Counted from the stretch's first letter, positions 27,354 to 53,669 are shown. The stretch is DNA of 64,000 bases from Octopus sinensis (GCF_006345805.1 NW_021833426.1:47194-111193), one strand, 5' to 3'. Notes: a model not told the origin generated them from the sequence alone. Program-made: numbers and translations.

Positions 27354-27989
27354 CATATATATATGTATACATGCATATATTTATATATTATTTATATATA
27401 TATATATATAATATACATACATAATATGTGTGTATATATATCTTTTTCTTGTTTCATCAGACTGCGGCCATACTGGGGCACCGCCTTGAAGAATTGTTAG
27501 TCGAATGATTCGACTCGCACCTTGCGCAAGTGTCTTCTATTTAAGCCTCGGAGCGACCAAAGCCTTGTGAGTGGATTTAATAGCGGAAACTGAAAGAAGC
27601 CCTCGTACTTATTCTATCAGTGCCTGGTACTTATTCTATCGGTTTCTTTTAGTCGAACCGTTAGGTGACAGGGGACGTAGACAAACCAACATCGGTTGTC
27701 AAGCGTTAGTGGTGGGCAACACGAGCAGAACCCCCCCCACACACACACACATACATGTATATGTATGTATATAATGTGGTGCTCGAACATGACCTCAGAT
27801 TCTGGCTGAAACTCGTGAAAGGAAAATAAAAGAAAATACGACGGGTTTCATTCAGTTTCCGTCAACCAAATCCAGCCATAAGGCTTTGGTCAGCCCGGGG
27901 CTATACTGGAAGGCACTTGCCCCAGATGCCGAAACCATGTGGTTGGGAAGCAAACTTTGAGCCACACAGCTACGCATGCGCTTATATAT

Positions 27990-28143
27990 AGTGGCTGTGT
28001 GGTAAGTAGCTTGCTAACCAACCACATGGTTGCGGGTTCAGTCCCACTGCGTGGCATCTTGGGCAAGTGTCTTCTGCTATAGCCCCGGGCTGACCAATGT
28101 CTTGTGAGTAGATTTGGTAGAAGGAACTGAAAGAAGCCTGTCG
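27990..28143 (+). mobile_element. SINE family A 5' half (3' half at 35430-35620), split by the Penelope-like insertion
   Basis: Head ends at the TA tract; the tail resumes after the TA tract at 35415. Confidence 0.8.
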
Positions 28144-28145
28144 TA

Positions 28146-28176
<31 letters not shown>

Positions 28177-28216
28177 TATTATACTAAAAAGGAAGACAAC
28201 AACAAGAATGGATAGT

Positions 28217-28307
28217 TTTTAGTACGATCGTTTCATACAAGGACAGGTTTTATTAAAAGTTGCAAAGATTACAGCATATAAACGAGTCCCGTACTCATCA
28301 GCTAAAA
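28217..28307 (-). ncRNA. Type I hammerhead ribozyme (inverted pLTR copy)
   Basis: Reverse complement of 30628-30718. Confidence 0.8.
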
Positions 28308-29724
28308 TACATGTAAGTTCTCTAGACATCCTAGTGTTGAGGCTATACTCATGAAGTAATGTAGATAATTAAACAGATTTCTAAAGTTCATTAAAGTTCC
28401 TTAAAGATGATGTATAGTCTTATCACAGAATTTTAAAAAAGTTTTGATAGCATCACAGAGAAGGTGACCTAATCCATATGAATTCCATAGATATGATGAG
28501 GGATTATATACTCACAGAAGACAAATTTATCCATTGTTATTAGCATTACAGAGAGGGTGAATTAATCCTTTGTATATATGCACAGATTCCAAAGGTGTAG
28601 ATGTAAATTTCCAGAGAAATGGAATGAATTTCATATTCACAGGCGATAAATTTTACAATGGTTGAAGCACAATGAGGTAGGTACCAATCCTTGTTATTGA
28701 TTAGGTGTTTGCCATATTAATCACTTACTACTGCTATTCACAAGAGGCTGTAGCTATTTAACTCTTAAAGGTTGAAGGGCTTACTAGATCGGCCAAGAAT
28801 AGAGAAGGGAATAGAAGAAAGAGAGAAAAAATAGAAAATAATGGAGGAGGGAGCAAAAAAGGGGGGAAAAGGGGGACTAAAAGAGACGAGAAAAGGAAAC
28901 AGAGAATAAGAAGAAGAAAAGAAGAAAGAGAAAAGAGAAAGAAATAGGAAAGAAGAGGGAAAAAAGAAAAAGAGAAAGAGGGTTCTAGTTATACAGAGAG
29001 CTAGTAGACTGTAAGTCTGGTTTTTATCACAGGCATCTAAGAGCTGGAGGGGACTATTATTCTTTGACCAGTAAACCGTTAATTTATTGCTGTTGAAATC
29101 AGCTATGAGTTTAAAGAGAATCTAAAGAGATAACACAGTCAGGGGTTAAGGGGTCAGATGCTAAAATCACCAGAAAATACATTAGGAAAATCTAAGTATA
29201 ATCTTCTCAAAAAGTCATTAAAAATAACTTATTTAATTTATTCATTTATTGTCTTAAGGAGTTGTCGTTATTATTCATACATTGACCGACTACAGGTCAA
29301 TCTTATAAGATCATTTACAAGTGTTAGGGGATTGTCTATCCTAATGAAGATAATCATATTATCACCGAGGGAATAGCCTTATTTATTTAATTATGAAATA
29401 GAATTATGGGGCTACAGTAACTAATTATAATTTATTAGAGTTATGCTATTTAAATTAGATTAAGTTAGGAATTAAAATTAAATATTACAATTAAGATTTA
29501 AAATTAAGAATTTAAAAAATTGCGAGTTTGAAATTAAATAAAGCCTCAATTAAGTCGAATAAGTACTATTTCATTTCCCTGTTCTCAAAAAACTGATGTG
29601 ATATAAGGAAAAAGATAAAGATAACTGTAATGTGAGAACTCTTAGTTATCTACTTAAAGCAGTGCTATACTAGTAGAAATCAAGCTATATCTATCTATCT
29701 AGTTGTGATATTCCAATCATTTAA

Positions 29725-30581
29725 AATATTTTAAAGTCTTCAATTTAGCGTGGACACAACTTGACCTAGTTCGATATGGTTATTCAATAAGTTTCTATGT
29801 TTACTATGCTTTAGAATTTCGTACGTCTCCATGGAGCATAGTTGACAACCAACCCTACTATTTTATACGGAATTGCTCTCCTAACTATTTCCCAATTAAG
29901 GGTATAATTTTTGTTATTTTTTTGAGTTCCCAGATTTTGTTTGAAAGTGTGGTGGTACCAGCTTTATGACGTAATTTAAAAGTCGAGATGTGATTTCTAA
30001 CTCTGGCTAAAAAATTAATTGTACAGCCAATGTAAAAAATTTGTTATTCTCCGTGGATATGGTACATTTATAGATTACATTATTTTCCCTACATAGACCA
30101 GGTGCCGGCATTTTGATTTTATTCTACACTTACACACAGGAGGAACAACTTCAGGCCTTGGATTATTCCTGGGTAGATGTTTAAGGTTCCTATTATTTTG
30201 ATTATCATTTCTATAGTTGGTACTGATATCTAAAGTATTGTTATTATTTATTGATCCTTCCGTTTCATCATTTAGGTGTAAAGTCCTACCAGATTTCTTA
30301 TATATTCGTAATGTTATTATTATTGTTAGTCTTTTTATCCAACTGTATATTATTGTTATAGATATCACTGTATTTTCATTCTCCTTATTTTCTCCATTAG
30401 CCTTATTTCTATTATTTCTATTATTAACAATATTACTTCTATTAATATCGGCATTGTTATTATTACTATTAATGTTAATGTTATTAGTCATTCTGTGGTT
30501 ACTAATTTCACCTATGTTTTGATAGTTCCTATTGCTGTTTTTATTGTTGGTAGTATTATTGTTATTGCTATTGGTATTCAT
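29725..30581 (-). pseudogene. Inverted partial copy of Penelope ORF 3' end (Asn-rich linker + GIY-YIG)
   Basis: ORF 30075-30581 has the same N-terminal sequence as 32886-33101 and continues to CKCRIKSKC. Confidence 0.88.
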
Positions 30582-30627
30582 TCTGATATTATTATTTTAG
30601 TATTTTTAGTATATTATTATATTAGTA

Positions 30628-30718
30628 TTTTAGCTGATGAGTACGGGACTCGTTTATATGCTGTAATCTTTGCAACTTTTAATAAAACCTGTCCTTGTAT
30701 GAAACGATCGTACTAAAA
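30628..30718 (+). ncRNA. Type I hammerhead ribozyme in 5' pLTR
   Basis: Stem I ttttag/ctaaaa; core CTGATGA..GAAA; stem II gtacgggac/gtccttgtat; palindromic stem III ACGATCGT; GUA cleavage triplet. Confidence 0.85.
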
Positions 30719-30919
30719 ACCTATCCATTCTTGTTGCTTCTTTCTCGCTTATAATCACCCACATTACTGTATTGTTAAATCAGTATTGTTTTTTTTTTGT
30801 GCATCTAAGTTAGGTACCATATTCAAGTAAATTTTTTAAATTAACTTGATCTTTTGCTCTCTTTGAATATATTCCATACAGTCTGTATGTTTTTTCTGGT
30901 ACTTAATTTCTCAACAAGA

Positions 30920-33753
30920 ATGGAAAAAGTCAACATTAAGTTCTCCCCTAAAGACATCCCCTTACATAGTATAGATGAATATAATTGGCTTCTCATTCAT
31001 AGGATTACCGATTTCATTAGAAGAATCAGGTGGAAAACGTACCATTTTGATGTCAAACAGAAGAAGAAACCTCAGGAAATGAATACCGAAAAGAATTTTA
31101 GAAAGAATTTTTAAAAGTAGAAAAAGCCCACCTCAGAACCCATTCCTGGAGAACTTTGAGAAAGACTTGCTGAATCTTATAGATGATATTAGCTTCAATG
31201 AACACCCGTTAAGGTATAACCCTCACCTTAGACACCTTAGGAACTTTATTCAGTCAACCCGTGCAAACATGGAATCCTAGTACCAGCAGATAAAACGGGT
31301 AATATGTATAGAGTTGATTACGATATTTATAGCAAATTAATTAGGAAAGAACTAACTCCAAATATAAAATTACAACTAAGAACAATTTGAAAAAAGTAAA
31401 CATGGAAATGAAAGAGATCATGGAGAAACTAAATTTAACAGATAGAACGGAGCCACTTAAACCCTGTGAGCCCAGGATCAACCTTAAAGACCACAAAAAG
31501 GACTTCTTGGATAACCCTTCAGTAAGGCTGATCTGTCCAACTAAGTCGGACATTGGCCGACTTAGTAAATCTATCCTGGATACTGTTCTACCCCCAAATA
31601 ACCCCTCTTCTCCCCTTAAACCTATGGCTAAGTACCGACGACGAGTTCTAAAATGGTTTAACTCTCTAACTAATACTAGTAGTCTGTCCTTTATTCAGTT
31701 CGATATTAATAGTTATTACTCTAGCATTTCCCCTATCTTACTCAACAAATCACTAATATTTGCCATGAATCGCTCCCTCATAACTAGAGAAGAAATCAAT
31801 ATTGTGCTACTAGCTAGGAAGACATTTATTGAATTTGAAGATAAATTATGGACTAGAGCAGATACACCAAATTTTTTTGATATACCAATGGGTTCCAGTG
31901 ATTCGGCTGAGGTAACCAACCTAGTAGGCGCATATCTATTAAAATGCATAAGCAAGGATATCCCAGAAATACAGGGGGGTCTATATAGAGATGATGCTCT
32001 GTTTGTTATCCCTAGTAATAATAAATCTGTTATAGAAAGGATTAGAAAGAAAATTAATAAGTTCTTTAAGGATTTCAACCTCAGTATAACGTATGAACCG
32101 GGCACTAAAATAGCTAATTTCCTAGATATTACCCTAGACCTTAACTCCAAGCTACATTACCCATTTAGAAAGGAAGGCGAAGTCACGAATTACGTAAATA
32201 AATTATCAAATCATCCCCCAAATATAATAGAATCTTTAGTAAAAATATTTCATTAAGAATTTCAAAATTATCATCCAATAAGGATATATTTTAACTCCAT
32301 TCTGAGCATTATAATGCGGCGTTAACTAAGGCTGGATACAACCAAAAGATTACATTCGTTGATAGGGAGAACTCACGTATTCCTAATAATGAAGTTATCA
32401 GTAATCAAGTAAGCAGCAAAAAGACCAAACCCGAATAAAAGTAGAATTAAATTAACGGTAAACGCTAATCTAGAGTACAGGCCAACAATTCAAATAGAAG
32501 CATTGACCAGAACATAGGTAACTCGGATAAGATTGAAGTAGATAAACCTAAGATGCACACAAATAAAAATAAAAATAATGGTTAATAAATACATAACTCC
32601 GGTGAGATGAATAGTAGTAATTCTACGAACCCTAAATTTTATAAAAAGATATATTATGGCTGAATATTCCTTTCAACTGTGCGATAACAATCGGATATAC
32701 AGAACAAATTCAAAGTAATTCTGGAAAAAAATTTCCCTATCTCTCATAGATATCATAGAATTATTTCTAGGAAAACAGTTAGGATTTCTTATTCACCCTC
32801 CCAAATATGTCCACTTTAATAGCTAAAATTAATAATAACAACATTAAACTAGCCAGGAAAGATAGAAATAAAATAATATATCAGAATGAATACCAATAGC
32901 AATAACAATAATACTACCAACAATAAAAACAGCAATAGGAACTATCAAAACATAGGTGAAATTAGTAACCACAGAATGACTAATAACATTAACATTAATA
33001 GTAATAATAACAATGCCGATATTAATAGAAGTAATATTGTTAATAATAGAAATAATAGAAATAAGGCTAATGGAGAAAATAAGAGAATGAAATATCAGTG
33101 ATATCTATAACAATAATATACAGTTGGATAAAAAGACTAACAATAATAATAACATTACGAATAATATAAGAAATCTTGGTAGGACTTTACACCTAAATGA
33201 TAAACGGAAGGATCAATAAATAATAACAATACTTTAGATATCAGTACCAACTATAGAAATGATAATCAAAATAATAGGAACTTAAACATCTACCCAGGAA
33301 TAATCCAAGGCCTGAAGTTGTTCCTCCTGTGTGTAAGTGTAGAATAAAATCAAAATGCCCGGCACCTGGTCTATGTAGGGAAAATAATGTAATCTATAAA
33401 TGTACCATATCCACGGAGAATAACAAATATTTTTACATTGGCTGTACAATTAATTTTTTAGCCAGAGTTAGAAATCACATCTCGACTTTTAAATTACGTC
33501 ATAAAGCTGGTACCACCACACTTTCAACAAAATCTGGGAACTCAAAAATAATAACAAAAATTATACCCTTAATTGGGAAATAGTTAGGAGAGCAATTCCG
33601 TATAAAAATAGTAGGGTTGGTTGTCAACTATGCTCCATGGAGACGTACGAAATTCTAAAGCATAGTAAACATAGAAACTTATTGAATAACCATATCGAAC
33701 TAGGTCAAGTTTGTGTCCACGCTAAATTGAAGACTTTAAAATATTTTAAATGA
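30920..33753 (+). pseudogene. Penelope-like reverse transcriptase/GIY-YIG endonuclease ORF, frameshifted as assembled
   Basis: KDIP..FIRRIRWK, PADKT, LKDHK..RLICPTKSDIG, QFDINSYY, PMGSSDSAEV, LYRDD, NFLDITLDL, SNHPP; then CKC..KCP..C, VIYKC..YIGCT..R..NH, CQLC..E. Confidence 0.92.
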
Positions 33754-35178
33754 TTGGAATATTCACAACTAGATAGATAGATATAGCTTGATTTCTACTA
33801 GTATAGCACTGCTTTAAGTAGATAACTAAGAGTTCTCACATTACAGTTATCTTTATCTTTTTCCTTATATCTACATCAGTTTTTTGAGAACAGGGAAATG
33901 AATAGTACTTATTCGCTACTTAATTGAGGCTTTATTTAATTTCAAACTCGCAATTTTTTAAATTCTTAATTTTAAATCTTAATTGTAATATTTAATTTTA
34001 ATTCCTAACTTAATCTAATTTAATAGCATAACTCTAATAAATTATAATTAGTTACTGTAGCCCCATAATTCTATTTCATAATTAAATAAATAAGGCTATT
34101 CCCTCGGTGATAATATGATTATCTTCATTAGGATAGACAATCCCCTAACACCTTGTAAATGATCTTATAAGATTTGACCTGTAGTCGGTCAATGTATGAA
34201 TAATAACGACAACTCCTTAAGACAATAAAATGAATAAATTAAATAAGTAAATTTTTAATGACTTTTTGAGAAGATTATACTTAGATTTTCCTAATGTATT
34301 TTCTGGTGATTTTAGCATCTGACCCCTTAACCCCTGACTGTGTTATCTCTTTAGATTCTCTTTAAACTCATAGCTGATTTCAACAGCAATAAATTAACGG
34401 TTTACTGGTCAAAGAATAATATTCCCCTCCAGCTCTTAGATGCCTGTTGATAAAAACCAGACTTACAGTCTACTAGCTCTTCTGTATAACGAAACCCTCT
34501 TCTTCTTTTTCTTTTTTCCCTTCTTTCCCTATTTCTTTCTCTTTCTCTTTCTTCTTTTTCTTCTTCTTATTCTCTGTTTCCTTTTCTCGTCTCTTTTAGT
34601 CCCCCTTTCCCCCCCTTTTTTGCTCCCTCCTCCATTATTTTCTCTTTTTTCTCTCTTTTTTCTCTCTTTTCTTCTATTCCCTTCTCTATTCTTGGCCGAT
34701 CTAGTAAGCCCTTCAACCTTTAAGAGTTAAATAGCTACAGCCTCTTGTGAATAGCAGTAATGTGATTAATATGGCAAACACCTAATCATATAACAAGGAT
34801 TGGTACCTACCTCATTGTGTTCAACCATTGTAAAATTTATCGCCTGTGAATATGAAATTCATCTCCATTTCTCTGGAAATTTACATCTACACCTTTGGAA
34901 TCTGTGCATATATACAAAGGATTAATTCACCCTCTCTGTAATGCTAATAACATGGATAATTTGTCTTCTGTGAGTATAATAATCCCTCATCATATCTATG
35001 GAAATTCATATGGATTAGGTCACCTTCTCTGTGATGCTATCAAAACTTTTTTAAATTCTGTGATAAGACTAACATCATCTTTAAGGAACTTTAATGAACT
35101 TTAGAAATCTGTTTAATTATCTACATTACTTCATGAGTATAGCCTCAAACACTAGGATGTCTAGAGAACTTACATGTA

Positions 35179-35267
35179 TTTTAGCTGATGAGTACGGGAC
35201 TCGTTTATATGCTGTAATCTTTGCAACTTTTAATAAAACCTGTTTGTATGAAACGATCGTACTAAAA
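35179..35267 (+). ncRNA. Type I hammerhead ribozyme in 3' pLTR
   Basis: Same fold as 30628-30718. Confidence 0.82.
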
Positions 35268-35659
35268 ACCTATCCATTCTTGTTGCTTCTTTCTCGCTTA
35301 TAATCACCCACATTACTGTATTGTTAAATCAGTATTGTTTTTTTTGGTGCATCTAAGTTAGGTACCATATTCAAGTAAATTTTTTAAATTAACTTGAATC
35401 TTTATTGCTCTTTGTATATATATAATATATATATGTGTGTGTTTGTCCCCCTAGCATTGCTTGACAACCGATGCTGGTGGTTTTCGTCCCCGTCACTTAG
35501 CGCTCGGCAAAGAGACCGATAGAATAAGTACTGGGCTACAAAGAATAGTCCCGGGGTCGATTTGCTCGACTAAAGGCAGTGCTCCAGCATGGCCGCAGTC
35601 AAATGACTGAAACATAAAGATTAAAAGAGAGTATATATATATATATATATATATATATA

Positions 35660-36350: not shown

Positions 36351-37080
36351 ATATTATACATACAGATACATACAAATATGTATATATACACACATATACA
36401 AATATGTATATACACACAAATACAAATATGTATATATACACATATATACAAATATGTATATGCACACATAGACACGCATATATATATATACATATATACA
36501 CACACACACATACTCATATATTATATAGCCTCCAAACATTCAAAAGATTCTTCAAATACAATTCCTGGAATAGAAATGTACATACGGTCACGTGTCCATA
36601 CAACACGTGACACAGACGTAGGTATGGGCATAACGATCGTACATTTATGAGTGTACAGAATACACAAGTATACCATAACATGAGTGGGCATATATATCTC
36701 TCACATGAACCTATATACGCATACATACATACACGCACGCACACACACACACACACACACATGCACACAAACAAACACGCGTGTATATACATACATCTCT
36801 TATCGTTTATCTATTACTTGTTTCAGTCTTTAGACTGCGGCCATGTTGGAGCACCACCTTGAACATTTGTTTTAGTCAAATGAATCGCCCTCAGTACTTA
36901 CACACACACACACACACACAAACATGCACGCATGCATGCACACTCATTCATATATTCATTAATTCCAGCAGCATCCGGTATCGATTTTGTGAAGAATTTG
37001 AATAAATTTCAAGGTAAAACAATACATGCACATGCGGTATATACACTCATATACACGCACGTACACATACTAATATATAT

Positions 37081-37113
<33 letters not shown>

Positions 37114-37327
37114 TTACCACACAACATATATAGATACACGCATATTTAGGTACGAGACTACAACAACCATACACACACGCAAGAAACTGTCTGGTATGTT
37201 AGGACTACATATATACACACACATGCTCAGACACGTGTGTAACCTCGTATAGGGTCTGTAAAGATGGAGTTCGATTAGTAGATCGGTCCAGGGCTCGGAG
37301 AGCTAAGATGAGGTCGATGATGATCTT

Positions 37328-37453
37328 GCAGGCTTCGATCTATAAAAAAAGAAAAACAAGCAAAGAAACAAACACTCAGACTCTAGGATTTTGAGAAGAG
37401 CCCTACTTTCACTTTGTCGGAGGACCTGCACACAAGTGTTCATTGTACATGTT

Positions 37454-37493
<40 letters not shown>

Positions 37494-37632
37494 GCTTCGA
37501 TCTATAAAAAAGAAAAACAAGCAAAGAAACAAACACTCAGACCCTAGGATTTTGAGCGGGGCCCTACTTTCACTTTGTCGGAGGACCTGCACACAAATGT
37601 TTAGTGTACATGTTACGTGTGTGTGTGTGTGT
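37328..37632. repeat. Tandem duplication, ~160 bp unit ending in (GT)n
   Basis: aggcttcgatctataaaaa..gtacatgttacgtgtg occurs twice. Confidence 0.9.
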
Positions 37633-37878
37633 TACAGCCATGCACACATTCACTCTTACACATTGGTTTATATAAGCATACACATACATATTGGTTTCAA
37701 ATTTTAGCACAAGGCCAGCAAGTTCGGTGGGTGGGGTGGATAAGTCGATTACATCGACCCAGTGCATAACTGGTACTTATTTTATCGACGCCGAAAGGAT
37801 GAAAGGTAAAGTCGAATTTGAACAGGGAACGAAACACACACACACAGGGTCTGTAAAAGATGGGAGTTCGATTTAGAT

Positions 37879-37919
<41 letters not shown>

Positions 37920-37944
37920 ATACACACACACACATTCTTAATGC

Positions 37945-38325
37945 TTTTATTTCAGCCATTTGACTGCGGCCATGCTGGAGCCACCACCTTTAGTCGAACA
38001 AGTCGACCACAGGACTTATTCTTTATAAGCCTAGAACTTATCCTATCGGGGTCTTTTCTCGAACCGCTAGGTTACGGGGACGTAAACACACCAACATCGG
38101 TTGTGAAGTGATGGTGGGAGATAAACACAAACACACACACACAAATATACACGCACATATATACGACGTGCTTTTTTCAATTTCCGTCTACCAAATCCAC
38201 ACACAAGGTTTCAGTCGGCCCGAGGCTATAGTAGACTATATTTGCCCAAGATGCCACGTAGGGGGATTGACCCCAGAACCGTGTGGTTGGTAAGCAAGCT
38301 TCTTACCACACAGCCACACTACGCC
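37945..38325 (-). mobile_element. SINE family A
   Basis: Family match. Confidence 0.82.
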
Positions 38326-38335
38326 TGTGTGTGTG

Positions 38336-38361
<26 letters not shown>

Positions 38362-38370
<9 letters not shown>

Positions 38371-39139
38371 TATGTTTTATTGTGTATGTTTATGTATAGG
38401 TATCGATGAATATACCTGTGTGCTTGGATGCAAGTTTGTTAATGTAGAAGCGAATGTACGATTGTATATAATTATAAGTATGCCCATATATAGGCACAGG
38501 CTTGGTCGCGTGGATAGGAAGCTGGCTTCGCAACCACGTGGTTTCAGGTTCGATACTAACTGGGCGACGCTATGAGCAATAAGCCCCGGATTGACCAATG
38601 CGTTCTGAGTGAATTCACAGACTGAAACTGCGGAAACCCGTGTGTGTGTTCGTTTTCTTTCCCCCACACCGGCTCCGGCCTGTAAAAAATTAGAATGGAA
38701 AGAAATAACAGGATTAGTGCCAACCTCAAAAATAAGTAAAGGGTTTCATCGAATAGACTGGCCCCAGTACTTATTTTTGAGGTTGGCACTAATCCTGTTA
38801 TTTCTTTCCATTCTAATTTTTTACAGGCCGGAGCCGGTGTGGGGGAAAGAAAGAAACACACACACGGGTTTCCGCAGTTTCAGTCTGTGAATTCACTCAG
38901 AACGCATTGGTCAATCCGGGGCTTATTGCTCATAGCGTCGCCCGTTAGTATCGAACCTGAAACCACGTGGTTGCGAAGCCAGCTTCCTATCCACGCGACC
39001 AAGCCTGTGCCTATATGGGCATACTTATAATTATATACAATCGTACATTCGCTTCTACATTAACAAACTTGCATCCAAGCACACAGGTATATTCATCGAT
39101 ACCTATACATAAACATACACAATAAACCTAAACAATATA
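38362..39139. repeat. Near-perfect inverted repeat, ~375 bp arms, ~29 bp spacer
   Basis: 38362-38738 is the reverse complement of 38768-39139. Confidence 0.95.
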
Positions 39140-40284
39140 TATATATATATATATATTACACCAACACCTAGTGTCAATAATACACGCTATATATTTGTTT
39201 CTTTATTACATCGACCCCAGTGCGTAACTGGTACTTAATTTATCGACCCCGAAGGATGAAAGGCAAAGTCGACCTCGGCGGAATTTGAACTCACAACGTA
39301 ACGGCAGACGAAATACCGCTACGCACTTCGCCCGGCGTGCTAACGTTTCTGCCAGCTCGCCGCCTTAATACACGCTATATATCGCGTATATCATATATAC
39401 CGACCGACATATAGACGCATATAAAAAGCCCATGCGTATATCTATACGCATTGACAAATATCGTCCTAACGTATAGTGAATATATACACACTCAGTTACA
39501 CACACACACACGTGCGCACATAGAAATATTTATATTTACGAATACATACACATAAGCATACAGAAAGAAACATATACAATTCAAATACATATACACACCA
39601 ATACATATACACTCCGCACTTGTTGAGCTCAATTCCTCCGAGCTCAGCTTTTCCTTTCACCCTTCTTTTGAGGGGCCGATAAATAGAGTACGAGTTTGAG
39701 TACTGAGATCATCTAATCGATAACCCCACCAATCTATCCCCCTAAATTACTCGCCTTGTCCCCAAAAATTCGAAGAATTACACACACACACTCACACACA
39801 CACATATTTACCTACGTACACAAAAAACCGCATGGAGATTAATACATAAGCCTGCAAACACCTCATCGGGTGTAGAGAATTATACCACACACATTATATA
39901 CACATAGAAAATAATGGAATGTGAGAGACCAACCTTGTAATAGAATTATATATTATATTTCCTTATGTAAAATATGACAATGGTTTAGTACACAGTTGGT
40001 CGCGTTGGACCACCCTTAGTTCTGTTCCAACACTGGTCACTGGGCTTCTGTCTACTGGCTGTGTTTACACATCAATACTTGACTTTCTGTGTGTGTGTGT
40101 GTGTGTGTGTGTAGACATCAATTCTAAGTGATTGTGTGTGTGTGTGTCTGTGTGCGTGCGTTTATGTGTACATACAAACTTGGAATTATATATACATGAA
40201 CGGATTTTCATACACACATATGCACACAAATACTAATGTGTCGCACACATTCAAACGCACGCGTGTACATTCATACCCGCCCTT

Positions 40285-41500
40285 ATATATATAGATATAT
40301 AGATATGTGTGTTGTGTGTGTATATATATATGTGCGTCTATATATATATATGTATGTGTGTATATATGTGTTTGTATGTGTGTGTATATATGTATGTGCG
40401 TGCATATATATGTATGTATGTATGTGTGTGCATATATATATATGTATGTATGTGTGTGCATATATATATGTATGTATGTGTGTGCATATATATATGTATG
40501 TATGTGTGTGCATATATATATGTATGTATGTGTGTGCATATATATATATGTATGTATGTGTGCATATATATATATGTATGTATGTGTGTGTATATATATA
40601 TGTATGTATATGTAGGTTTATATATACATATGTATGTATGTATGTGTGTGTACATATATATATATGTATGTATGTATGTGTATATATATATATGTATGTA
40701 TTGTGTATATATATATGTATGTATGTGTATATATATATGTATGTATGTGTATTATATATATGTATGTATGTGTATATATAATATATGTATGTATGTTTAT
40801 ATTATATATGTATGTATGTGTAATATATATGTAATGTATGTATGTGTATATATATATGTATGTATGTATGTGTATATATATATGTATGTATGTATGTGTA
40901 TATGTATATATAAATATGTATGAGTATGTATGTATGTGTATATATATAGATGTATGTATGTATGTCTGTATGTATGTGTATATATATATGTTATGTATGT
41001 TGATTTTTGTGTGTTTATATATATGTATGTATGTATGTATGTGTGTGTATATAGATATGTATGTATGTATGTATGTGTGTATATATATATATGTATGTAT
41101 GTATGTATGTGTGTATATATATATATGTATGTATGTATGTATCTGTGTATATATATATATATGTATGCATGTATGTATGTGTCTATATATATATATATAT
41201 GTATGTATGTATGTATCTGTGTATATATATGTATGTGTGTATATATGCATGTATGTGTGTATATATATATATATGCATGTATGCGTGCATATATATGTAT
41301 GCGTGTATATATATATATATATATGCGTGTGTGTGTGTGTATGTATATATATGTATGTGTGTATGTATGTATGTGTATATATGTATATATATTGTGTGTG
41401 TATATATTGTATGTATGTGTATATATATATATGTGTGTGTGTATGGCCAATATATATATATATCTATATAATATATATAATATATATATAGAGGTTCTGC
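40285..41500. repeat. (TATG/TA/TG)n compound microsatellite
   Basis: Visible. Confidence 0.95.
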
Positions 41501-41809
41501 ATATCTATATCTATACATCTATATCTATAATTATATCTTTATATGTAATATGTGTGTAAGTATATGTATATGTATGTATGCGTATCTATATGTGCGTGTG
41601 TGTATGTATGTATTTATGTATGTATATGTGTACGTGTGTGTACGTGCGTGTATGGGCGTGTATGCACACATACACAATCCCATCCGAAGCTACACATCGA
41701 ACTCCCTCAGTCATTAAACCTTGAGCACAAAGCTTAAGTGGTGCAGCCCCAGCATGACCACAGCTATATAAATGAAACCAATGGAAGTGTGGTGTGTTGG
41801 TGTGTGTTG

Positions 41810-41842
<33 letters not shown>

Positions 41843-41847
41843 CGTGT

Positions 41848-41892
<45 letters not shown>

Positions 41893-42239
41893 CGGCCCAT
41901 TCATATGCACAGACTATCACTAACTACGTATTACTAGTTCTACAACTATAAATTAGTTTACATAGACACATCTTACCCCCACCCGCACACCTACACACAT
42001 ACGCAGTCTTCCAAAATCAACAGATCCTTATATAACCTGCCAATAATTGTTGCTACCTCCACAGTCGTGCAGAGGCCAGTCCAGGGCAAAATTCTGAGCA
42101 GACTGTCAACTTTTGATATGATAAACGTCTATCAACTCTACCCAAAATATAACTGATAATGTTTGAATTCCGCAAAACACACACATACGTGAGTGTGTGT
42201 TTGTTACATATAGCTTATATACTCTTTACTCTTTTACTC

Positions 42240-42635
42240 TTTGACTTGTTTCAGTCATTTGACTGCGGCCATGCTGGAGCACCGCCTTTAATCGAGCAAC
42301 TCGACCCCGGGACTTATTCTTTTGTAAGCCCAGTACTTATTCTATCGGTCTCTTTTGCCCGAACCGCTAATAACGGGGACATAAACACACAGCATCGGTT
42401 GTCCAGCAATGCTAGGGGGACAAACACACACACAGCACACACACTATATATATTATATATATATATACATATACATATATACGACAGGCTTCTTTCAGTT
42501 TCCTCCGTCTACTAAATCCACCACAAGGCATTGGTCGGCCCGGGCTATAGCAGAAGAGACCCTTGCCCAGATGCGACGCAGTTGGGACTGAACCCGGAAC
42601 CATGTGGTTGGTTAGCAAGCTACTTACCACACAGC
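42240..42635 (-). mobile_element. SINE family A
   Basis: Family match. Confidence 0.85.
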
Positions 42636-43406
42636 CTATATATATATATATAATATACGTTACAACAAAATTCTATATCCTGGATATAGTTACCCAAGGT
42701 TCGCATCCATAAGCCTTGTAGACAGCTCTCCAGACTCTATATAAAGACAACTTTTACGTCTTTATATAGTCTGACTAGCCGTCCACAAGGCTTTGAGTTC
42801 GTAGATGTGAAACCTTTGGGAACTCCATGTCCAAGATATAAAATCATGTTGTAACAATTACTTACTATTTGCCTATTCTTTATGTGTGTGCTTCTTTCTG
42901 ATATGTATGTATTTTTAAAAATTAACTATATATATATATATGAACAGATCGCTAGCCACTACACATTCTTTAGTTTCTCTCCTTGTTTCTTTCTGTGTTC
43001 CTTTTCTGTGGAAGAGCGTAGGTTCGAAACTCAAAGGCTTTTTCACTCCCCTAGCGTTATACTACATCTGTTTGTTGTCTACAACACCAGTCTTTTGTTT
43101 TTTTTGTGAATTCTCCCGATATATATATATGATATTATATTATAACATTTAACAATAAAACATATGCATACATACATACATACATGTACATACCTACATC
43201 TATATGTATATATACATGCATATATATATAAATTGAGATAGCAGGACACCACCAATAAATGTAGAACACAACGAGAAACGAAAGCATAAAACACAACAAG
43301 GAAACGGACTTTTTTTAACAACGAAAAAAACAGAGTTCAAGACAAACAATACAAGGAATATTCCCCCTTCATCAGCTGCCCCTGGTTCGACTCAATGCGT
43401 GTTTCG

Positions 43407-43438
<32 letters not shown>

Positions 43439-43439
43439 A

Positions 43440-43880
43440 ACAAGTAAATAAGTAGAAATCGAACTGGCGTGTGTGTTTAAATAATGGGGCATTAAAAGAG
43501 GATGACTCTCTCGAGACACAATAAAATATGCTTCAGTACATGGATTTACACAGAGAATCTAGCAAACCACATACAAAACCTCTCTGTCTGTATATCTACC
43601 CCCTTTATAATGTTAGCAATTAACATGGAAAGAAGTATATGTATTGATGGAAAACCTCTATGAATGGCTGATGATTGCTCAACATTTTAAAACTGATGTA
43701 ATTCTTACAATGTTTAATAAAATGATGTAGCGAGAAACGATCGTACCAAATTACCGAAGATATTCTTGTTGCTTACTTTGACTATAATCACCCCATGGAT
43801 TTATATGGATAATACCGTACAAAATTCTGGTGTATCTGACTTAAGTACCATATTCATTTGAATCTAAATTTTGTTGAACT
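43440..43880 (+). mobile_element. Solo 3' end/pLTR of a related Penelope-like family
   Basis: Shares attcttgttgctt, tataatcaccc and gtaccatattca blocks with the pLTR at 30625-30865; TA-flanked. Confidence 0.75.
43665..43748 (+). ncRNA. Type I hammerhead ribozyme
   Basis: tgg-CTGATGA-ttgct...agcga-GAAA-CGATCG-TA-cca. Confidence 0.75.
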
Positions 43881-43911
43881 TATATATATATATATATTAC
43901 TCACATTTACT

Positions 43912-44295
43912 TTTTTTACTTGTTTCAGTCATTTGACTGCGGCCATGCTGGAGCACCACTTTGATCGAGCAACTCGACCCGGGACTTATTCTTTTGTAAG
44001 CCCAGTACTTATTCTATCGGTCTCTTGCCGAACCGCTAAGTAACGGGACCTAAACACACCAGCATCGGTTTTCAAGCAATGCTAGGGGACAAACACAGAC
44101 ACACAACACACACGCATATATATATACATATATACCTGGCTTCTTCAGTTTCCATCTACCAAATCCACTCACAAGGCTTTGGTCGGCCCGAGGCTATAGT
44201 AGAAGACACTTACCCAAGGTGCCACACAGTGGGACTGAACCCGGAACTATGTGGTTGGTAAACAAGCTACTTACCACACAGCCACTCCTGCGCCC
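43912..44295 (-). mobile_element. SINE family A
   Basis: Family match. Confidence 0.85.
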
Positions 44296-45141
44296 ATAAT
44301 TTATATATATAAATCATAATTATGATTTCAGATGGACTTATAAACAATTAGAATTTACTGCTTAGTTTGAACACTTTTATGTAAATCGGTTATACACAAA
44401 GCCCCTCTTAACATTTTCTTATCATTGTTAGAGATTCTATACCGGCCTCCCCTCTCCACGCCACCAGTGTTATCCAAGGGAAAGGCAAAGGCCGATACAG
44501 CTTGGCATCTGTGACATCGCAACTCATTTCTACAGCTGAGTGAACTGGAGCATCGTAAAATAAAGTGTCTTGCTCAAGAACTCAACACGCAGCCCGGTCC
44601 GCGATTCGAACTCACAACCTCACGATCGTAAGCTCGACGCTCTAACCACTGAGCCATGCGCCTTCACGGTGTTGAGCATAATAAGTCTATTAAATAGTAG
44701 AGGACTCTTCACCACCGTTAGCAACGATACCTGAACTCGTTAACTCAACCAATATCATCTACATTCAGTTTACTGAGCACAAAAATGAAACGCTATTGAA
44801 TAACGTTGAATCTGTCGCTAACTGCAGAAGGAAAAGCTTTTTCTACGAGTCAGAGATCTTTTATTTGTTTGCTTAAAACTTTAGTATAAAAAGAAATGTG
44901 GAGCTACCTGCCAAGAATTAAATACAATAGACATGGCTAGCAACATTAAATTCCGTCAGCTTTCTGGAACAAACTTAACTGATATTAAGAATATTAATAG
45001 ACGCAAAAGTTTTATTTTGTTTGAGGGGATAAAACAAAAAATCTTTACGAATTAGAAATAAGATACGTATAAACAGCTTCTAACCAAGTGTATCACCATA
45101 ATGCATTAAGAATCTATCTTACATACGTGTAGTAATAATAT

Positions 45142-45530
45142 GGAGGCGCAATGGCCCAGTGGTTAGGGCAGCGGACTCGCGGTCATAGGATCGCGGTTTC
45201 GATTCCCAGACCGGGCGTTGTGAGTGTTTATTGAGCGAAAACGCCTAAAACTCTACGAGACTCCGGCAGGGGATGGTGGTGATCCCTGCTGTAACTCTTT
45301 CACACACACAACTTTCTCTCACTCTTACTTCCTGTTTCTGTTGTACCTGTATTTCAAAGGGCCGGCCTTGTCACTCTCTGTGTCACGCTGAATATCCCCG
45401 AGAACTACGTTAAGGGTACACGTGTCTGTGGAGTGCTCAGGCACTTACACATTAATTTCACGAGCAGGCTGTTCCGGTTGATTCGGATCAACCGGAACCC
45501 TCGTCGTTGTAACCGACGGAGTGCTTCCCC
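45142..45530 (+). mobile_element. SINE family B, long form, with target-site duplication
   Basis: tagtaataatat on both sides. Confidence 0.9.
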
Positions 45531-45739
45531 TAGTAATAATATAAAAATGGGACAACAAACTTATAACTCGCAAACTTGAATTAGACAATAGATTAGACTG
45601 TTTAGCGAAACACAAAGTTTATATAACACTCGAAGACCATAAAGAGAATTTTATTCTAACCAAAAAAAAAAAAAATGCTGTTTAATCAATCCTGCTAAAA
45701 GTGAAACCGGATTCAGTAACGAATACACTTAAATAATAT

Positions 45740-46445
45740 GGAAGCACTCCGTCGGTTACGACGATGAGGGTTCCGCTTGATCCGATCAACGGAACAGCCT
45801 GCTCGTGAAATTAACGTGCAAGTGGCTGAGCACTCCACAGACACGTGTACCCTTAACGTAGTTCTCGGGGGAGATTCAGCGTGACACAAAGAGTGACAAG
45901 GCCGGCCCTTTGAAATACAGGTACAACAGAAACAGGAGGTAAGAGTGGAGAGAAAGTTGTGGTGAAGAGTACAGCAGGGATCACCACCATCCCCTGCCGG
46001 AGTCTCGTAGAGCTTTTAGGTGTTTTCGCTCAATAAACACTCACAACGTATAGAGTATATGCAGTAATGTAACAAATGTCTGAAAGCGAACAATGTATGA
46101 GTCAGATACATGCTTGTGTGTGTATGGAGGGGAGAAAATCAGGTGTAGTGTTGGCGAATCTCAGGAAGCATGGAAGTTTTGAAGGATGCAGTGCTCCGAC
46201 AACTAACAACTGATGCCCGCAGTTTGTTCCATGCTTCAGCAACTCTCAGCGTGAAAAAATGTTTCCTAAAGTCATGGGAGCTGTGCTGTTTTCTGACTTT
46301 GTAAATATGTCCACGGGTGTTAACGGGTGGAGTTTGAAAAGGTGCTCAGAGTTATTGTTTGTAAGATGGTTGAAATCCAAATCCCGGTCTGGGAATCGAA
46401 ACCACGATCCTACGACCGCGAGTCCGCTGCCATTGCGCATCCACC
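45740..46445 (-). mobile_element. SINE family B interrupted by an inverted CR1 fragment
   Basis: SINE breaks at cacaacg| (46048) and resumes at |cccggtctggg (46383); flanks share cacttaaataatat. Confidence 0.85.
46048..46384 (-). mobile_element. CR1-type LINE 3' fragment, inverted copy
   Basis: Reverse complement of ~46697-47037. Confidence 0.85.
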
Positions 46446-46696
46446 ACTTAAATAATATTAAGTATAAAATTAGGAGAGCAGCAATCTTCCGTTAATGGAG
46501 TAATAGCAGTACCGTTATTAGCTGGGTTTTAGATCAACAATAATAGTGTGTTCGCATTCATTATATTATACAGGCTCAAATTTTAATCTTAGATCTTTAC
46601 TGACCAGTGCTCTAGATTTTTCCAAGACCTATGATACTATAAACGTCAGATATTTTTATGCATGTCTTTAAAACTTTACTGTTCGGTAAAAACTGG

Positions 46697-47102
46697 TTGG
46701 ATTTGGATTTCAACCATCTTACAAACAATAACTCTGAGCACCTTTTCAAACTCCACCCGTCTAACACCCGTGGACATATTTACAAAGTCAGAAAACAGCA
46801 CAGCTCCCATGACTTTAGGAAACATTTTTTCACGCTGAGAGTTGCTGAAGCATGGAACAAACTGCCGGCATCAGTTGTTAGTTGTCGGAGCACTGCATCC
46901 TTCAAAACTTCCATGCTTCCTGAGATTCGCCAACACTACACCTGATTTTCTCCCCTCCATACACACACAAGCATGTATCTGACTCATACATTGTTCGCTT
47001 TCCAGACATTTGTACATTACTGCATATACTCTATACGCACTTCCTAACAAGTTGTGGTGCACCTGAGCACTGTATACAATAATTTCATTATTATTATTAT
47101 TA
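46697..47102 (+). mobile_element. CR1-type LINE 3' end with (ATT)n tail
   Basis: TRGHIYKV..RKHFFTLRVAEAWNKLP..VV..FK is the typical CR1 ORF2 C-terminus. Confidence 0.88.
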
Positions 47103-48029
47103 TATAAAAAAAACGCAAGCCCGACAGTTTGTCGAACAACATTTTGCGATTCTGTATAACCTAGATTCACTTTAAAATAAATTCAGATTACAGATATAAG
47201 CCTCTGTAGTGACAATAGGTTGGCCCTTTCATAGCACGTCAGTAATCACGTATTCAACCAGCGTAAGAAAGAATTCATAAACCCCTTTAATAATTCTGAT
47301 CAGAAGATAATTATAACCACTAACTTAAGCACAGATAATTCCTGAAATGTCATAATCAACCTAACGACAGAGAAGTATTATCCATACAGCATACTGAACG
47401 GAAAGTTCTCGTACGATAATATAGATTGCAGTCATGTCCGACCAGAGTTTTTAAAAACCTAATCATTTTGACATTGACTGAAAACGTTAACATGTTCTCT
47501 AATAAAGAACTATTTGTCATAGCTGGACCTTATGAAATTAATTCTGCAGAACGTAGTAAGCATAATGATAGGGTAAATGTATCTCTGCCCCTTGACATAT
47601 TTAACCTTCTGTCTACCAATGGGTCCAATGGAACCATTTCAGTTTTTTTTCAGCTGCTTTTTCCTATTGTTTATATTATTTGAATCTGCTGATTTCTCGT
47701 GATTGTTATTTTTACTTGACACTTTTATTTGTCAAATGGGAAATTTTCCGTTTGCTTATAAAAGCTAGAAAATTTCACTTTATACATTAATTACCGTATG
47801 GGTCCATTGGACCCTCGGATTAAATTCAGACAATAATCTTGTCAGTCTAAACAGAATAAAAGCAGTATCAAATATTATTTTAGATATTTATCAGATAAAA
47901 TAGATGGAATTGTATTCAATTATTTGCTGAATTTATTAAAAAATAGGAAAAATTATGAAAACGTTCCTGTAAATTTGTGATATTGCATCACCCTCAATCT
48001 GCTAGGCTATAGGGTGATGCAATATTTCT

Positions 48030-48517
48030 ACGTGATCGGCAATTTCCAGCGATTTCGGCGATTCCGGCAATTTCCAGCGATTTCCGGCAATTTCCCCCAA
48101 AATTTCCGGCGATTTCGGCAATCTCCGGCGACTTCGGCAATTTCCGGTGATTCCGGCGATTTTCGGGAAATTTCTGCAATTCCCGGTGATTTCAGCAATT
48201 CCGGCGATTTCGGCAATTTCCGGCGATTCCGGCAATTTCCGGCGACTTCGACAATTTCCGGCGATGTCAGTAATTCCCGGTAATTTGCTGATATTTCGGC
48301 GATCTCCGGTGATTTCGGCACTTTCCGGTGATCTCCGGCGATTTCGGGCAATTTCCGGGCTGTCTCCGGCAATCACGGGCTATTTCCGGCAATCTCGGGC
48401 TGTATCCGACAATCTCGGGCTGTATCCGACAATCTCGAGCTATTTCCGGCAATCTCGAGCTGTCTCCGGCAATCTCGGGCCTGTCTCCGGCAATCTATGT
48501 TGTTCTTCCATTTTATT

Positions 48518-48557
<40 letters not shown>

Positions 48558-48609
48558 CATATATAAGGAACAATGTATATTTTTGAGCTACTATACACAC
48601 ACATATTTA

Positions 48610-48648
<39 letters not shown>

Positions 48649-49995
48649 TTATAGTCAGTGGACTCTGACCATGCTGGATCACCAACTGGAAGGATTTAAT
48701 TGAACAAGTTATTTTAAAATCTGGAACTTATCGTATCGTGTTCTTCTATTGTTCTATCATGTTCTTCTATTATGGTGACGTAAGGAATTCAACGACAATT
48801 GTCAATCGGTAGTAGGGACAAACAATTGTCAGCAATTTCCGGCAATCTCGGGCTCTTTCCGGCAATCTCGGGCTCTTTCCGGCAATCTCGGGCTCTTTCC
48901 GGCAATCTCGGGCTCTTTCCGGCAATCTCGGGCTATTTCCAGCAATCTCGGGCTATTTCCAGCAATCTCGGGCTGTCCCCGGCAATCTCGGGCTATTTCC
49001 AGCAATCTCGGGCTGTCTCCGACAATCTCGGGCTATTTCCGGCAATCTCGGACGGTCTCTGGTAATCTCGGGCTATCTCCGAAAATCTCGGGCTATTTCC
49101 GGTAATCTCGGACTGTCTCGGGTAATCTCGGGCTGAAATCGCCGGAAATTGCCGAAAACGCCGGAAATTGCCGAAAACGCCGGAAATTGCCGGAAATCAC
49201 CGAAAATTGTCGGAAATCAACGGAATTGCCGGAAATTACCGGAAATTGCCGAAATCACCGGAGATTGCAGGAAATCAATGGAATTGCCGGAAATTGGCGG
49301 AGATTGACCAAAATTGCCGAAATCGCCGGAGATTACCGGAAATCGCCGAAATTGCCGGAGATTGCCTGAAATTGCCGGGGATTGACGGAAATTGCCGAAT
49401 TCGCCGGAGATTAGCGGAAACCGCCGAAATCGCCGGAGATTGTCGGAATCGCTGAAAATTGTCGGAAATGAACGGAATTGTCGGAAATTGCCGGAAATCG
49501 CCGAATTCGCCGGAGACTGACGAAAATTGCCGGAGATTACCGGAAATTGTCGAAATCACCGGAGATTGCCTGAAATTGCCGAAATAGCCGGAGATTGACG
49601 GAAATTGCTGAAATCGCCGGAGAATACCGGAATTTGCCGAAATCACCGGAGATTGACGGCAATTGCCGAAACCACCGGAAATTGCCGAAACCACCGGAGA
49701 TTACCGGAAATTGCCGAAATCACCGGAGATTGCCGGAAATTGCCGTAATCGCCGGGGATTGACGGAAATTGCCGAATTCGTCGGAGAATACCGGAATTCG
49801 CCGAAATCGGTTGAGATTGTCGGAAATCGCCGGAGATGGCCGGAAATCGCCGGAGAATGCAGGAAATCGCCGAAATCACCGGAGATTGCAGGAAATCGCC
49901 GAGATCGCCGGAGATTGCCGGAAATCGCCGAGATCGCCGGAGATTGCCGAAAATCGCCGAGATCGCTGGTGATTGCCGGAGATCGGCGGAGGTTT
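48030..49995. repeat. CpG-rich CCGG satellite blocks (48030-48495, 48830-49135, reversed 49136-49995)
   Basis: Visible; orientation switches at ~49135. Confidence 0.92.
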
Positions 49996-50191
49996 CCGGA
50001 CACTTTATATATATGTATATATACATATATATACTACACACAAACAATTTAAGAAACACAGTATATAAATTTATGAGCTAGCATTTTTTTAACACGTCTA
50101 GTCCCTTCACGCAATTCACAGGTTCTGCCCACGTGGCATATGGAGTACATTTTTTGTTTATCTTACCCACACAGAACAGTTCAAGATATAT

Positions 50192-50244
<53 letters not shown>

Positions 50245-50428
50245 ATATAATAACACATACACACATATATATCTATACACACACACACACACATATACAT
50301 TTGAGGACTATAAGGGTTTAGTTCACTGCTGATCTAAACCAATAGGTAGGCAGCGTAATTGCTATAATTAGTCGTCCGTTGGGGCTGGAGCTAGGGATCC
50401 GTAACAGGCTTCCGAGCCATCAGGTATA

Positions 50429-50830
50429 AATGGAAAAGGAAAACAAAGCCAAGGAAGGACGAGTATCTCAGGTCATTTAGAATATTTAATTAAAGTAAGG
50501 TGAATCAAACATGGACAAGTACAAGTAACTAATGTCTTACAGCTGTTTCTGGGATATCCCAGGTGATGGTTCAACATCTCCATACACTGAGTATTCCGAC
50601 ATCCGAGACAAAGTATGTATGCAGGAAAATTCCAGACAGGGAATTCTCAATCTGGAACTTTCCTGCATCCGTACGTTGTCTCCAATGTCGGAATACCCAG
50701 TGTATGGAGATGTCATCCCATCATCAGCTGTAAGAAATTAGTTACTTCTACTTTTCCATTCACCTTTAATTAAGTATTCTAAATGACCTGAAATGCTCGT
50801 CCTTCCTTGGCTCTACTTTCCTTTTCCATT
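50429..50830. repeat. Imperfect fold-back palindrome (~400 bp)
   Basis: aatggaaaaggaaa..gccaaggaaggacgag pairs with ctcgtccttccttggc..ttccttttccatt; centre ~50640. Confidence 0.88.
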
Positions 50831-50833
50831 AAT

Positions 50834-50892
<59 letters not shown>

Positions 50893-53424: not shown

Positions 53425-53464
<40 letters not shown>

Positions 53465-53633: not shown

Positions 53634-53669
<36 letters not shown>

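What the first reader, a model, noticed from the sequence alone, without database searches (positions are those of the whole stretch)
28198..35413. Young Naiad-like Penelope element with a 2.4 kb inverted arm and three hammerheads
Seen layout: inverted 3' half, AT-rich filler (30590-30625), pLTR, ORF, 1.4 kb 3' UTR, pLTR. The arms differ mostly by 1-bp indels. The inverted arm keeps a frame open (168 aa) where the forward copy breaks (71 aa), which suggests the frameshifts are consensus errors and the element may be intact. Known: PLEs form tandem or inverted pLTR structures; DKT in place of DKG and a CxC..C linker are Naiad features as I recall them from Craig et al. 2021. Inference: a recently active family whose read-through transcript would fold into kb-long dsRNA bounded by ribozymes.
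Basis: partly seen in the sequence, partly recalled or inferred. Interest (0 to 1): 0.72.

Follow-up and report, generated by a model that had tools for sequence, protein, structure and literature searches.

The report
Young oversized Hydra-type Penelope retrotransposon
This is one copy of a young jumping-gene family (Hydra-type Penelope, not Naiad) in what is likely an octopus genome; its back-to-back layout is a known one, but all 60 two-armed copies examined pair one long with one short end, which likely records how the enzyme copies both arms from one source RNA.

Summary
The layout is real. The Naiad label is wrong. Craig et al. 2021 give DKT, RWK, CxCX5C, a C-terminal GIY-YIG, a hammerhead and (TA)n targeting to Hydra; Naiad has an N-terminal nuclease and DKA. 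All Hydra motifs are present. The family is young (median 0.44% substitutions) with 749 exact 3'-end matches. It encodes 947 aa, stop-free in one genomic copy. This copy's 23 indels against 3 substitutions are probably assembly errors. It is about twice the usual Hydra length, with Asn-rich inserts, a 1.4 kb 3' UTR, a 119-nt tail and a hammerhead with a 60-nt stem II holding a conserved AATAAA. Mechanism: 60 of 60 two-armed insertions pair a long with a short 3' end; the arms share source variants; 40 of 65 short ends carry a junction-only G. This favours two target-primed starts on one uncleaved or circular template. 'dsRNA bounded by ribozymes' is unsupported: no A>G excess, and the antisense arm would mask the ribozymes. 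The scan noted long stems and paired ends before on other octopus DNA.

The parts
27983..28176 (.). Left part of the SINE-like host repeat, ending in the (TA)n target tract
   Evidence: matches 42646-42448 and other copies in the window; 'SINE-like' is my label from recall
28177..28199 (-). Atypical short-end junction of the inverted arm: about 23 nt of rearranged sequence instead of the usual CTCGC(G/T)TATA end
28200..30589 (-). Inverted, 5'-truncated arm (end of ORF, 3' UTR, hammerhead); ends near the short 3' site
   Evidence: 97.1% to 32869-35294
28215..28309 (-). Hammerhead motif 3, on the opposite strand from the other two
30590..30624 (.). AT-rich filler at the head-to-head junction; holds a 13-nt direct copy of the left target flank and an 11-nt inverted copy of the left junction
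   Evidence: read directly from the sequence
30625..30872 (+). 5' pLTR: more-than-unit-length copy of the 3' end
30626..30720 (+). Hammerhead 1 (type I): predicted cut after 30712, 60-nt stem II with a sub-hairpin, palindromic stem III, AATAAA at 30681-30686
30873..30919 (+). 5' UTR
   Evidence: family ORF starts at query position 297
30920..33753 (+). Single ORF, broken in this copy by 23 small indels. Family ORF is 947 aa: RWK, DKT, telomerase-like RT with YRDD, thumb, two Asn-rich inserts, C-terminal GIY-YIG
32370..32630 (+). Asn-rich insert 1 (aa 484-573, 24% Asn, predicted disordered); coordinates approximate
32870..33325 (+). Asn-rich insert 2 (aa 653-805, 39% Asn, predicted disordered); coordinates approximate
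33330..33753 (+). CxCX5C linker and GIY-YIG endonuclease (VIY..YIG, no CCHH, CxxC, CxH)
33754..35175 (+). 1.4 kb 3' UTR; longest frame in the family majority sequence is 73 codons
35176..35421 (+). 3' pLTR with hammerhead 2 (predicted cut after 35261; AATAAA 35232-35237)
35298..35302 (+). Short 3' end site of the family (inferred reverse-transcription start 1, TTATA, 41 nt past the ribozyme cut)
35303..35421 (+). 119-nt tail, ending at the long 3' end site (inferred start 2, AATATAT in internal copies, 160 nt past the cut)
35422..35637 (.). (TA)n and right part of the interrupted host repeat
   Evidence: matches 42463-42216

Best explanation
This is a single two-armed insertion of a young Penelope-like retrotransposon family with the Hydra motifs, sitting in a TA tract, and both arms were likely copied in one event by two target-primed reverse transcriptions started at two fixed sites 119 nt apart on one source RNA. 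Shown: the layout; the Hydra motifs; the 947-aa family ORF; youth; (TA)n targets; the pairing of one long with one short end; shared source variants in both arms; cDNAs longer than one unit. Inferred: (1) the GIY-YIG nicks both strands of the palindromic (TA)n target; (2) each 3'-OH pairs with a short UA-rich patch (UAUA at 35299-35302, AUAUAU at the long site) and primes; (3) the template is an uncleaved read-through RNA or a hammerhead-made circle; (4) the two cDNAs stop at variable points and are joined head to head, mostly by short overlaps or filler. The frameshifts in this copy are probably consensus errors of the assembly. Odds by step: Hydra about 0.93; errors about 0.8; dual priming from one source about 0.65.
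For: Motifs: RWK 37, DKT 124, YRDD 355, CKCRIKSKC 808, VIY 827/YIG 842, CQLC 905, CVH 935; no DKA or DKG, against definitions in PMC8557442. Fold: best matches are TERT; residues 800-947 hit a cluster with GIY-YIG on 33% of members. ORF: stop-free 947-aa frame in L005 and in the majority sequence of both subfamilies; pN/pS 0.19 in RT, 0.25 in EN. Ends: 60 of 60 head-to-head insertions in 71 loci are long+short; 11 of 11 among the 13 new loci found with a query that stops before both ends; 9 of 10 opposed pairs in sister families, the tenth undetermined. Priming scars: G before TATA in 40 of 65 terminal short ends vs 0 of 82 read-through copies, in all four main haplotype groups; 39 long ends read G-TATATA where 23 internal copies read G-AATATA. 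One source: arms share segregating variants 124 vs 8 within insertions, 3,213 vs 23,366 between; 12 of 60 pairs stop within 30 nt of the same 5' point (permutation mean 1.6, maximum 8 in 20,000). Template: 22 of 22 full-unit arms run past the upstream ribozyme site; no 5' end lies within 12 nt of the cut. Errors: 23 indels vs 3 substitutions in this ORF; indel and substitution rates uncorrelated over 51 arms; 76 gap openings vs 19 mismatches where this contig overlaps C18; short-read contigs of 4 of 4 runs lack the three frameshifts in the 841 bp laid. In vitro precedent for two starts and both strands nicked and extended: PMC11167929.
Against: No tree with named Hydra, Naiad, Neptune or Poseidon references was built; the tree has no outgroup and puts this lineage on a long branch. 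In the one purified PLE, start sites did not differ between strands and had no homology to the target, so the strict pairing has no biochemical precedent. Shared variants also fit two RNAs from one locus, fold-back copying or gene conversion. 11 of 71 loci have a single arm only. This copy's own short end is atypical. 8 of its 23 ORF indels recur in other copies. The laid contigs come from a multicopy family and partly other haplotypes, so they do not test this allele, and no listed contig bridges the 30590-30624 filler (tables cut). Most of the 60 loci were picked by queries that favour long ends.
Confidence: 0.72

Rival explanations
1. Fold-back: one cDNA snaps back and copies itself (self-priming, proposed on an antisense template in PMC3846280), and the endonuclease trims one end to make the tail.
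For: 12 of 60 pairs are near-perfect palindromes; 42 of 130 insertion-private variants are in both arms; proposal seen in passages of PMC3846280; PMC8557442 attributes the tail to endonuclease resolution.
Against: In 16 of 60 the short arm reaches further 5' than the long arm and in 32 the reverse; a self-copy cannot exceed its template, and a short-ended cDNA cannot supply the tail. Both ends carry junction-only bases next to the target.
Confidence: 0.15
2. This copy is truly decayed: the frameshifts are real mutations.
For: 8 of 23 ORF indels recur in other copies; no read set was resolved to this allele.
Against: Only 3 substitutions in 2.8 kb; the same 4:1 excess of gaps appears in flanking DNA shared with C18; indel load varies 0.6-19 per kb independently of divergence.
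Confidence: 0.15
3. The inverted arm at this locus is a long-read or assembly artefact.
For: Small contig of about 1% indel error; atypical left junction; no listed contig bridges the filler; the C18 scaffold breaks at a gap before reaching the site.
Against: The arms are not a palindrome (2.27 kb between them) and have different 3' ends, like the other 59; the host repeat continues on both sides; 34 of the 65 loci behind the first 100 listed pattern matches are head-to-head, none tail-to-tail (my count).
Confidence: 0.06
4. One reading: a Naiad element whose read-through RNA is a functional ribozyme-bounded dsRNA.
For: (TA)n targeting and inverted structure are shared with Naiads; a 2.4-kb duplex is possible on read-through.
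Against: C-terminal endonuclease, DKT, no DKA, no CCHH, canonical hammerhead; no A>G excess in new copies; antisense pairing outcompetes the ribozyme fold.
Confidence: 0.03

Closest known systems
Hydra clade of Penelope-like elements, incl. Hydra-1_Obim (Craig et al. 2021, PMC8557442; main text parts 1-5 of 10 and supplement parts 1, 2, 7 read)
   Same: C-terminal GIY-YIG without CCHH, RWK, DKT, CxCX5C, CxxC, CxH, canonical hammerhead, (TA)n target; the N-terminal part resembles the printed start of Hydra-1_Obim by eye.
   Different: 4.55 kb unit and 947 aa vs 2.1-2.7 kb for complete families and 709 aa for Hydra-1_Obim; two Asn-rich inserts; 1.4 kb 3' UTR; stem II 36-60 nt vs 10-24 nt in File S2; 119-nt tail vs 30-40; a separate long-branched lineage.
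Naiad clade (same paper)
   Same: pLTRs, inverted 5' copy, tail, (TA)n preference.
   Different: Naiad has an N-terminal endonuclease with CCHH, CxC, DKA, IFD and no canonical hammerhead.
PAc / Poseidon of Anolis (Frangieh et al. 2024, PMC11167929; parts 1-2 of 4 read)
   Same: Two internal starts that bound the tail; AT-rich target; both strands nicked and extended; ribozyme cleavage not needed.
   Different: There the starts lie in the ORF, lack homology to the target and do not differ by strand. Here they lie upstream of the ORF, both offer UA microhomology, and are paired one long, one short.
Adineta vaga Penelope families (Arkhipova et al. 2013, PMC3846280; 10 passages read)
   Same: Asn-rich in-frame inserts, long spacer before the 3' pLTR, tail on one inverted pLTR, palindromic junctions.
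   Different: Other clade, few copies, 31-bp tail; self-priming proposed.
Dimer-dependent PLE hammerheads (Cervera and de la Pena 2014, PMC4209133; parts 1-2 of 4 read)
   Same: Type I, short palindromic stem III, extra base before stem II; circular template proposed for more-than-unit copies.
   Different: Stem II there is 6-8 bp; no poly(A)-type hexamer inside it is described in the parts read.

Membership tests
Hydra PLE | Single ORF, RT then C-terminal GIY-YIG | tested here: met
Hydra PLE | RWK motif; DKG modified to DKT | tested here: met
   RWK 37, DKT 124
Hydra PLE | CxCX5C linker; CxxC and CxH flanking the catalytic E and N | tested here: met
   aa 808, 905, 935; conserved in alignment A1
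Hydra PLE | No CCHH in the endonuclease; no Naiad CxC | tested here: met
   one Cys only between VIY and YIG; no CxC before the RT (read from P0001)
Hydra PLE | No insertion in fingers domain | tested here: inconclusive
   no extra block relative to 19 homologues, but no canonical reference was aligned
Hydra PLE | Canonical hammerhead in the pLTR | tested here: met
   core invariant; 92.7% of cells paired, 8 of 19 pairs with two-sided change; cleavage untested
Hydra PLE | (TA)n insertion preference | tested here: met
   TA tracts follow nearly all outer ends listed
Hydra PLE | RT phylogeny groups with named Hydra references | not tested
   published reference proteins were not usable as input; one search used unnamed homologues and own-genome families, no outgroup
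Hydra PLE | 'Generally short, <3 kb' (descriptive in the paper, not diagnostic) | tested here: not met
   4.55 kb unit; hence filed as an enlarged variant
Naiad PLE | N-terminal GIY-YIG endonuclease with CCHH | tested here: not met
Naiad PLE | DKA motif and CxC motif | tested here: not met
Naiad PLE | Lack of a canonical hammerhead | tested here: not met
Penelope/Poseidon, Neptune, Nematis | DKG and CCHH (plus CX2-5CxxC in Neptune and Nematis) | tested here: not met

The most novel reading that the evidence does not exclude
This Hydra lineage uses one asymmetric protein dimer on one RNA to prime both target strands at two fixed, ordered sites, which explains the inverted arm and one-sided tail of Penelope elements in general. 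Its long hammerhead stem II carries a poly(A) signal, so the same RNA segment would switch between a terminated mRNA and the read-through or circular template. AATAAA/ATTAAA lies 16-26 nt before the cut in 20 of 21 lineage motifs, with a U/GU-rich tract behind it.
Probability: 0.25. Interest if true: 0.7.

Novelty: new variant of a known kind. Interest (0 to 1): 0.42.

Why it matters
How Penelope-like elements make their inverted arms and one-sided tail is still open; only one element has been purified. This family gives a sharp genomic record (60 of 60 paired ends, a junction-only base, shared source variants) together with an intact protein, a simple (TA)n target and two known start sites, so the models can be told apart in vitro. 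It also shows that Hydra elements reach twice the published length, are missed by the Pfam and Rfam copies held here, and have recently placed hundreds of inverted repeats in a genome of a lineage known for heavy RNA editing (recalled). The locus itself is an ordinary, error-ridden copy.

Tried and rejected
Rfam: no match at gathering score in the window, four chance hits by E-value. Pfam: nothing meaningful for P0001 or 19 homologues; PDB by sequence: nothing. Free folding of single hammerheads gave z-scores of -0.4 to -1.1, so support rests on covariation. Editing signature in copies: none (in the older subfamily T>C exceeded A>G). Expression: no RNA holder listed. A 5' UTR intron, suggested by splice-like motifs at 30828 and 30914-30919: no joints in three runs guessed to be RNA and one DNA run; contigs only, so undecided. 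Empty target site: the overlapping C18 scaffold stops at a 100-N gap opposite window 36675. Truncation hot spot at the ribozyme cut: none. Second ORF in the 3' UTR: none over 73 codons. Short-type Hydra families of this genome gave no hammerhead under my strict pattern, not followed up. The tree is the quick version. Dropped before counts: L077 (same insertion and flanks as L065) and L093 (no hit). In one search, 1 of 22 motifs (L176:1173) was set aside as unrelated. Literature: six searches showed no paper on this family, on strict end pairing or on a poly(A) signal in a PLE hammerhead; subscription journals are not covered. PMC13282606 (passages) does not name Hydra or Naiad; its supplement was not read. 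bioRxiv 10.64898/2026.07.22.740005: part 1 of 5 read. PMC6765202: passages only.

Full report
Observation. The inverted arm 28190-30599 matches 32869-35294 at 97.1%, with 45 indel events and 10 substitutions; the pLTRs 30625-30872 and 35176-35421 match at 96%. Three hammerhead motifs are present, two on + and one on -. The whole 7.2-kb unit interrupts one host repeat at its TA tract. The 168-aa frame in the arm is open only through three cancelling 1-bp gaps. The host is likely an octopus: a 68%-identical N-terminus is labelled Octopus sinensis.

Clade. PMC8557442 defines Naiad by an N-terminal GIY-YIG with CCHH, CxC, DKA and no canonical hammerhead. It defines Hydra by a C-terminal endonuclease without CCHH, RWK, DKT, CxCX5C, CxxC, CxH, a canonical hammerhead and (TA)n targets. 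The family protein has every Hydra motif and neither DKA nor DKG. The fold (mean pLDDT 75.5) matches TERT best. Residues 800-947 hit a cluster with GIY-YIG on 33% of members. By eye the N-terminus resembles Hydra-1_Obim, but that family is 2,507 bp and 709 aa with another hammerhead. A quick tree without outgroup sets this lineage apart from short-type families of the same genome. Placement with named references was not tested.

Age and intactness. The genome holds at least 24 long copies at 91-98% besides fragments and 749 exact matches to a 33-mer of the 3' end. L005 has a stop-free 947-aa frame; it is cut a few bases into the ORF at its inverted junction. The majority sequences of both subfamilies give 947 aa, aligned without a gap, with pN/pS 0.19 in the RT and 0.25 in the endonuclease. 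Over 51 arms of the young subfamily the median divergence is 0.44% substitutions and 0.61% indels, uncorrelated. This copy's ORF has 3 substitutions and 23 indels, 15 of them private. Flanking DNA shared with C18 shows 76 gap openings against 19 mismatches in 6.8 kb. Short-read contigs of 4 of 4 runs differ from the window at the three frameshifts in the 841 bp laid (31102, 31260, 31353). Errors are the best reading, but no reads were resolved to this allele.

What differs from published Hydra. The unit is 4.55 kb. Two Asn-rich, predicted disordered inserts add about 240 aa, and the 3' UTR is 1.4 kb; both kinds of feature are known from rotifer Penelopes. The hammerhead has a 60-nt stem II against 10-24 nt in the published table. 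Across 13 sequences from sister families, stems I, II and a terminal sub-hairpin covary: 92.7% of cells paired, 0 of 500 shuffles as high, slid controls 25-51%; the sequences are related, so this is not a probability. In 20 of 21 lineage motifs an AATAAA or ATTAAA lies 16-26 nt before the predicted cut. Chance per shuffled sequence is 0.008-0.098, but the motifs are homologous and the hexamer is predicted mostly paired, so it may be structural only.

Mechanism. Of 71 loci, 60 are head-to-head and 11 have single arms only. All 60 pair an end at window 35421 with an end at 35302 (tolerance 10 nt). Most loci came from queries that favour long ends; among 13 new loci from a query that stops before both ends, 11 of 11 two-armed ones were again long+short. 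Sister families, down to about 65% RT identity, show the same in 9 of 10 opposed pairs. Either arm can be the full-length one. Junction bases point to fresh priming: 40 of 65 short ends have a G that 0 of 82 read-through copies have, whatever the haplotype. Long ends mostly replace the template A by a target-like T (39 vs 5, noisy pattern). The arms of one insertion share source variants (124 concordant, 8 discordant; 12% concordance between insertions). In 12 of 60 both arms stop at the same 5' point, against 1.6 expected. Middle junctions show 1-8 nt overlaps in 32, longer overlaps in 5, blunt joins in 6 and filler in 17 (no null computed). All 22 full-unit arms run through the upstream ribozyme site, one for 1.75 units, and no 5' end falls at the cut. 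I infer that both strands of the (TA)n target are nicked, that each primes at one of two UA-rich sites on an uncleaved or circular template, and that the cDNAs are joined head to head. PMC11167929 showed two internal starts bounding the tail and extension of both strands in vitro, but no strand difference and no target homology. Fold-back explains the palindromic cases but not arms that exceed each other in both directions (32 and 16 of 60).

The dsRNA idea. A read-through transcript could form a 2.4-kb stem with a 2.27-kb loop. It would not be bounded by working ribozymes: only two motifs share a strand, and the antisense pLTR would pair with them far more strongly than they fold. New copies carry no A>G excess, which speaks only to RNAs that were reinserted. 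No call shows transcription of this locus.

Earlier notes of this scan (unchecked AI notes, read after my analysis) report long stem II hammerheads in octopus Hydra ends and two fixed ends in a non-coding repeat. A look-up by protein sequence found nothing. This report adds the autonomous element, the counts and the junction scars.

Verdict. A new, enlarged variant of a known clade in a known insertion layout; the Naiad label is wrong. Interest 0.42, for the testable record of the insertion mechanism.

Noticed in passing
window 43577-43890: 3' end of a sister family with the same long-stem hammerhead and its own short and long ends (37 and about 135 nt past the cut); many of the 40 best copies begin at the same point of the query.
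   Followed up: partly
window 36675-53977 vs G000:C18:46.760-46.777 Mb: The window's contig overlaps C18 up to a 100-N gap, at 96-99% identity with mostly gaps: an unmerged overlap or second haplotype.
   Followed up: yes
P0025: A public gene model joins about 200 aa of a Hydra-type N-terminus (68% identical) to ankyrin repeats and a RING domain; likely an annotation chimera, exaptation not excluded.
   Followed up: no
L192, L193, L194, L195-L197, L198: Sister families with open frames of 842-1,124 aa stop to stop and 10-18% Asn: the lineage has several recently active, enlarged families.
   Followed up: partly
L220-L244: Short-type Hydra families (717-728 aa frames) are also intact in this genome; L236 and L239 resemble Hydra-1_Obim by eye.
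   Followed up: partly
L065 and L077 (C27); L026; four C29 copies: Identical insertions with identical flanks occur more than once: segmental or assembly duplications.
   Followed up: no
L005:1495: The copy with the stop-free frame gets its first Met from the inverted junction and lacks a 5' pLTR, so it has no evident promoter.
   Followed up: no
window 30880-30919; L176, L192, L208: The 5' UTR keeps GTATG..CTTAA(C/T)..CAACAAG before the start codon across families; splice-like, no spliced contig seen.
   Followed up: partly
window 30618-30849: Summed contig depth over the pLTR is over 100 times that of the 5' ORF in a DNA run: 3'-end stubs of the lineage appear far more abundant; not a copy number.
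   Followed up: no
window 46047-47037: Another inverted repeat, 276-nt arms at 97%, 439 nt apart.
   Followed up: no
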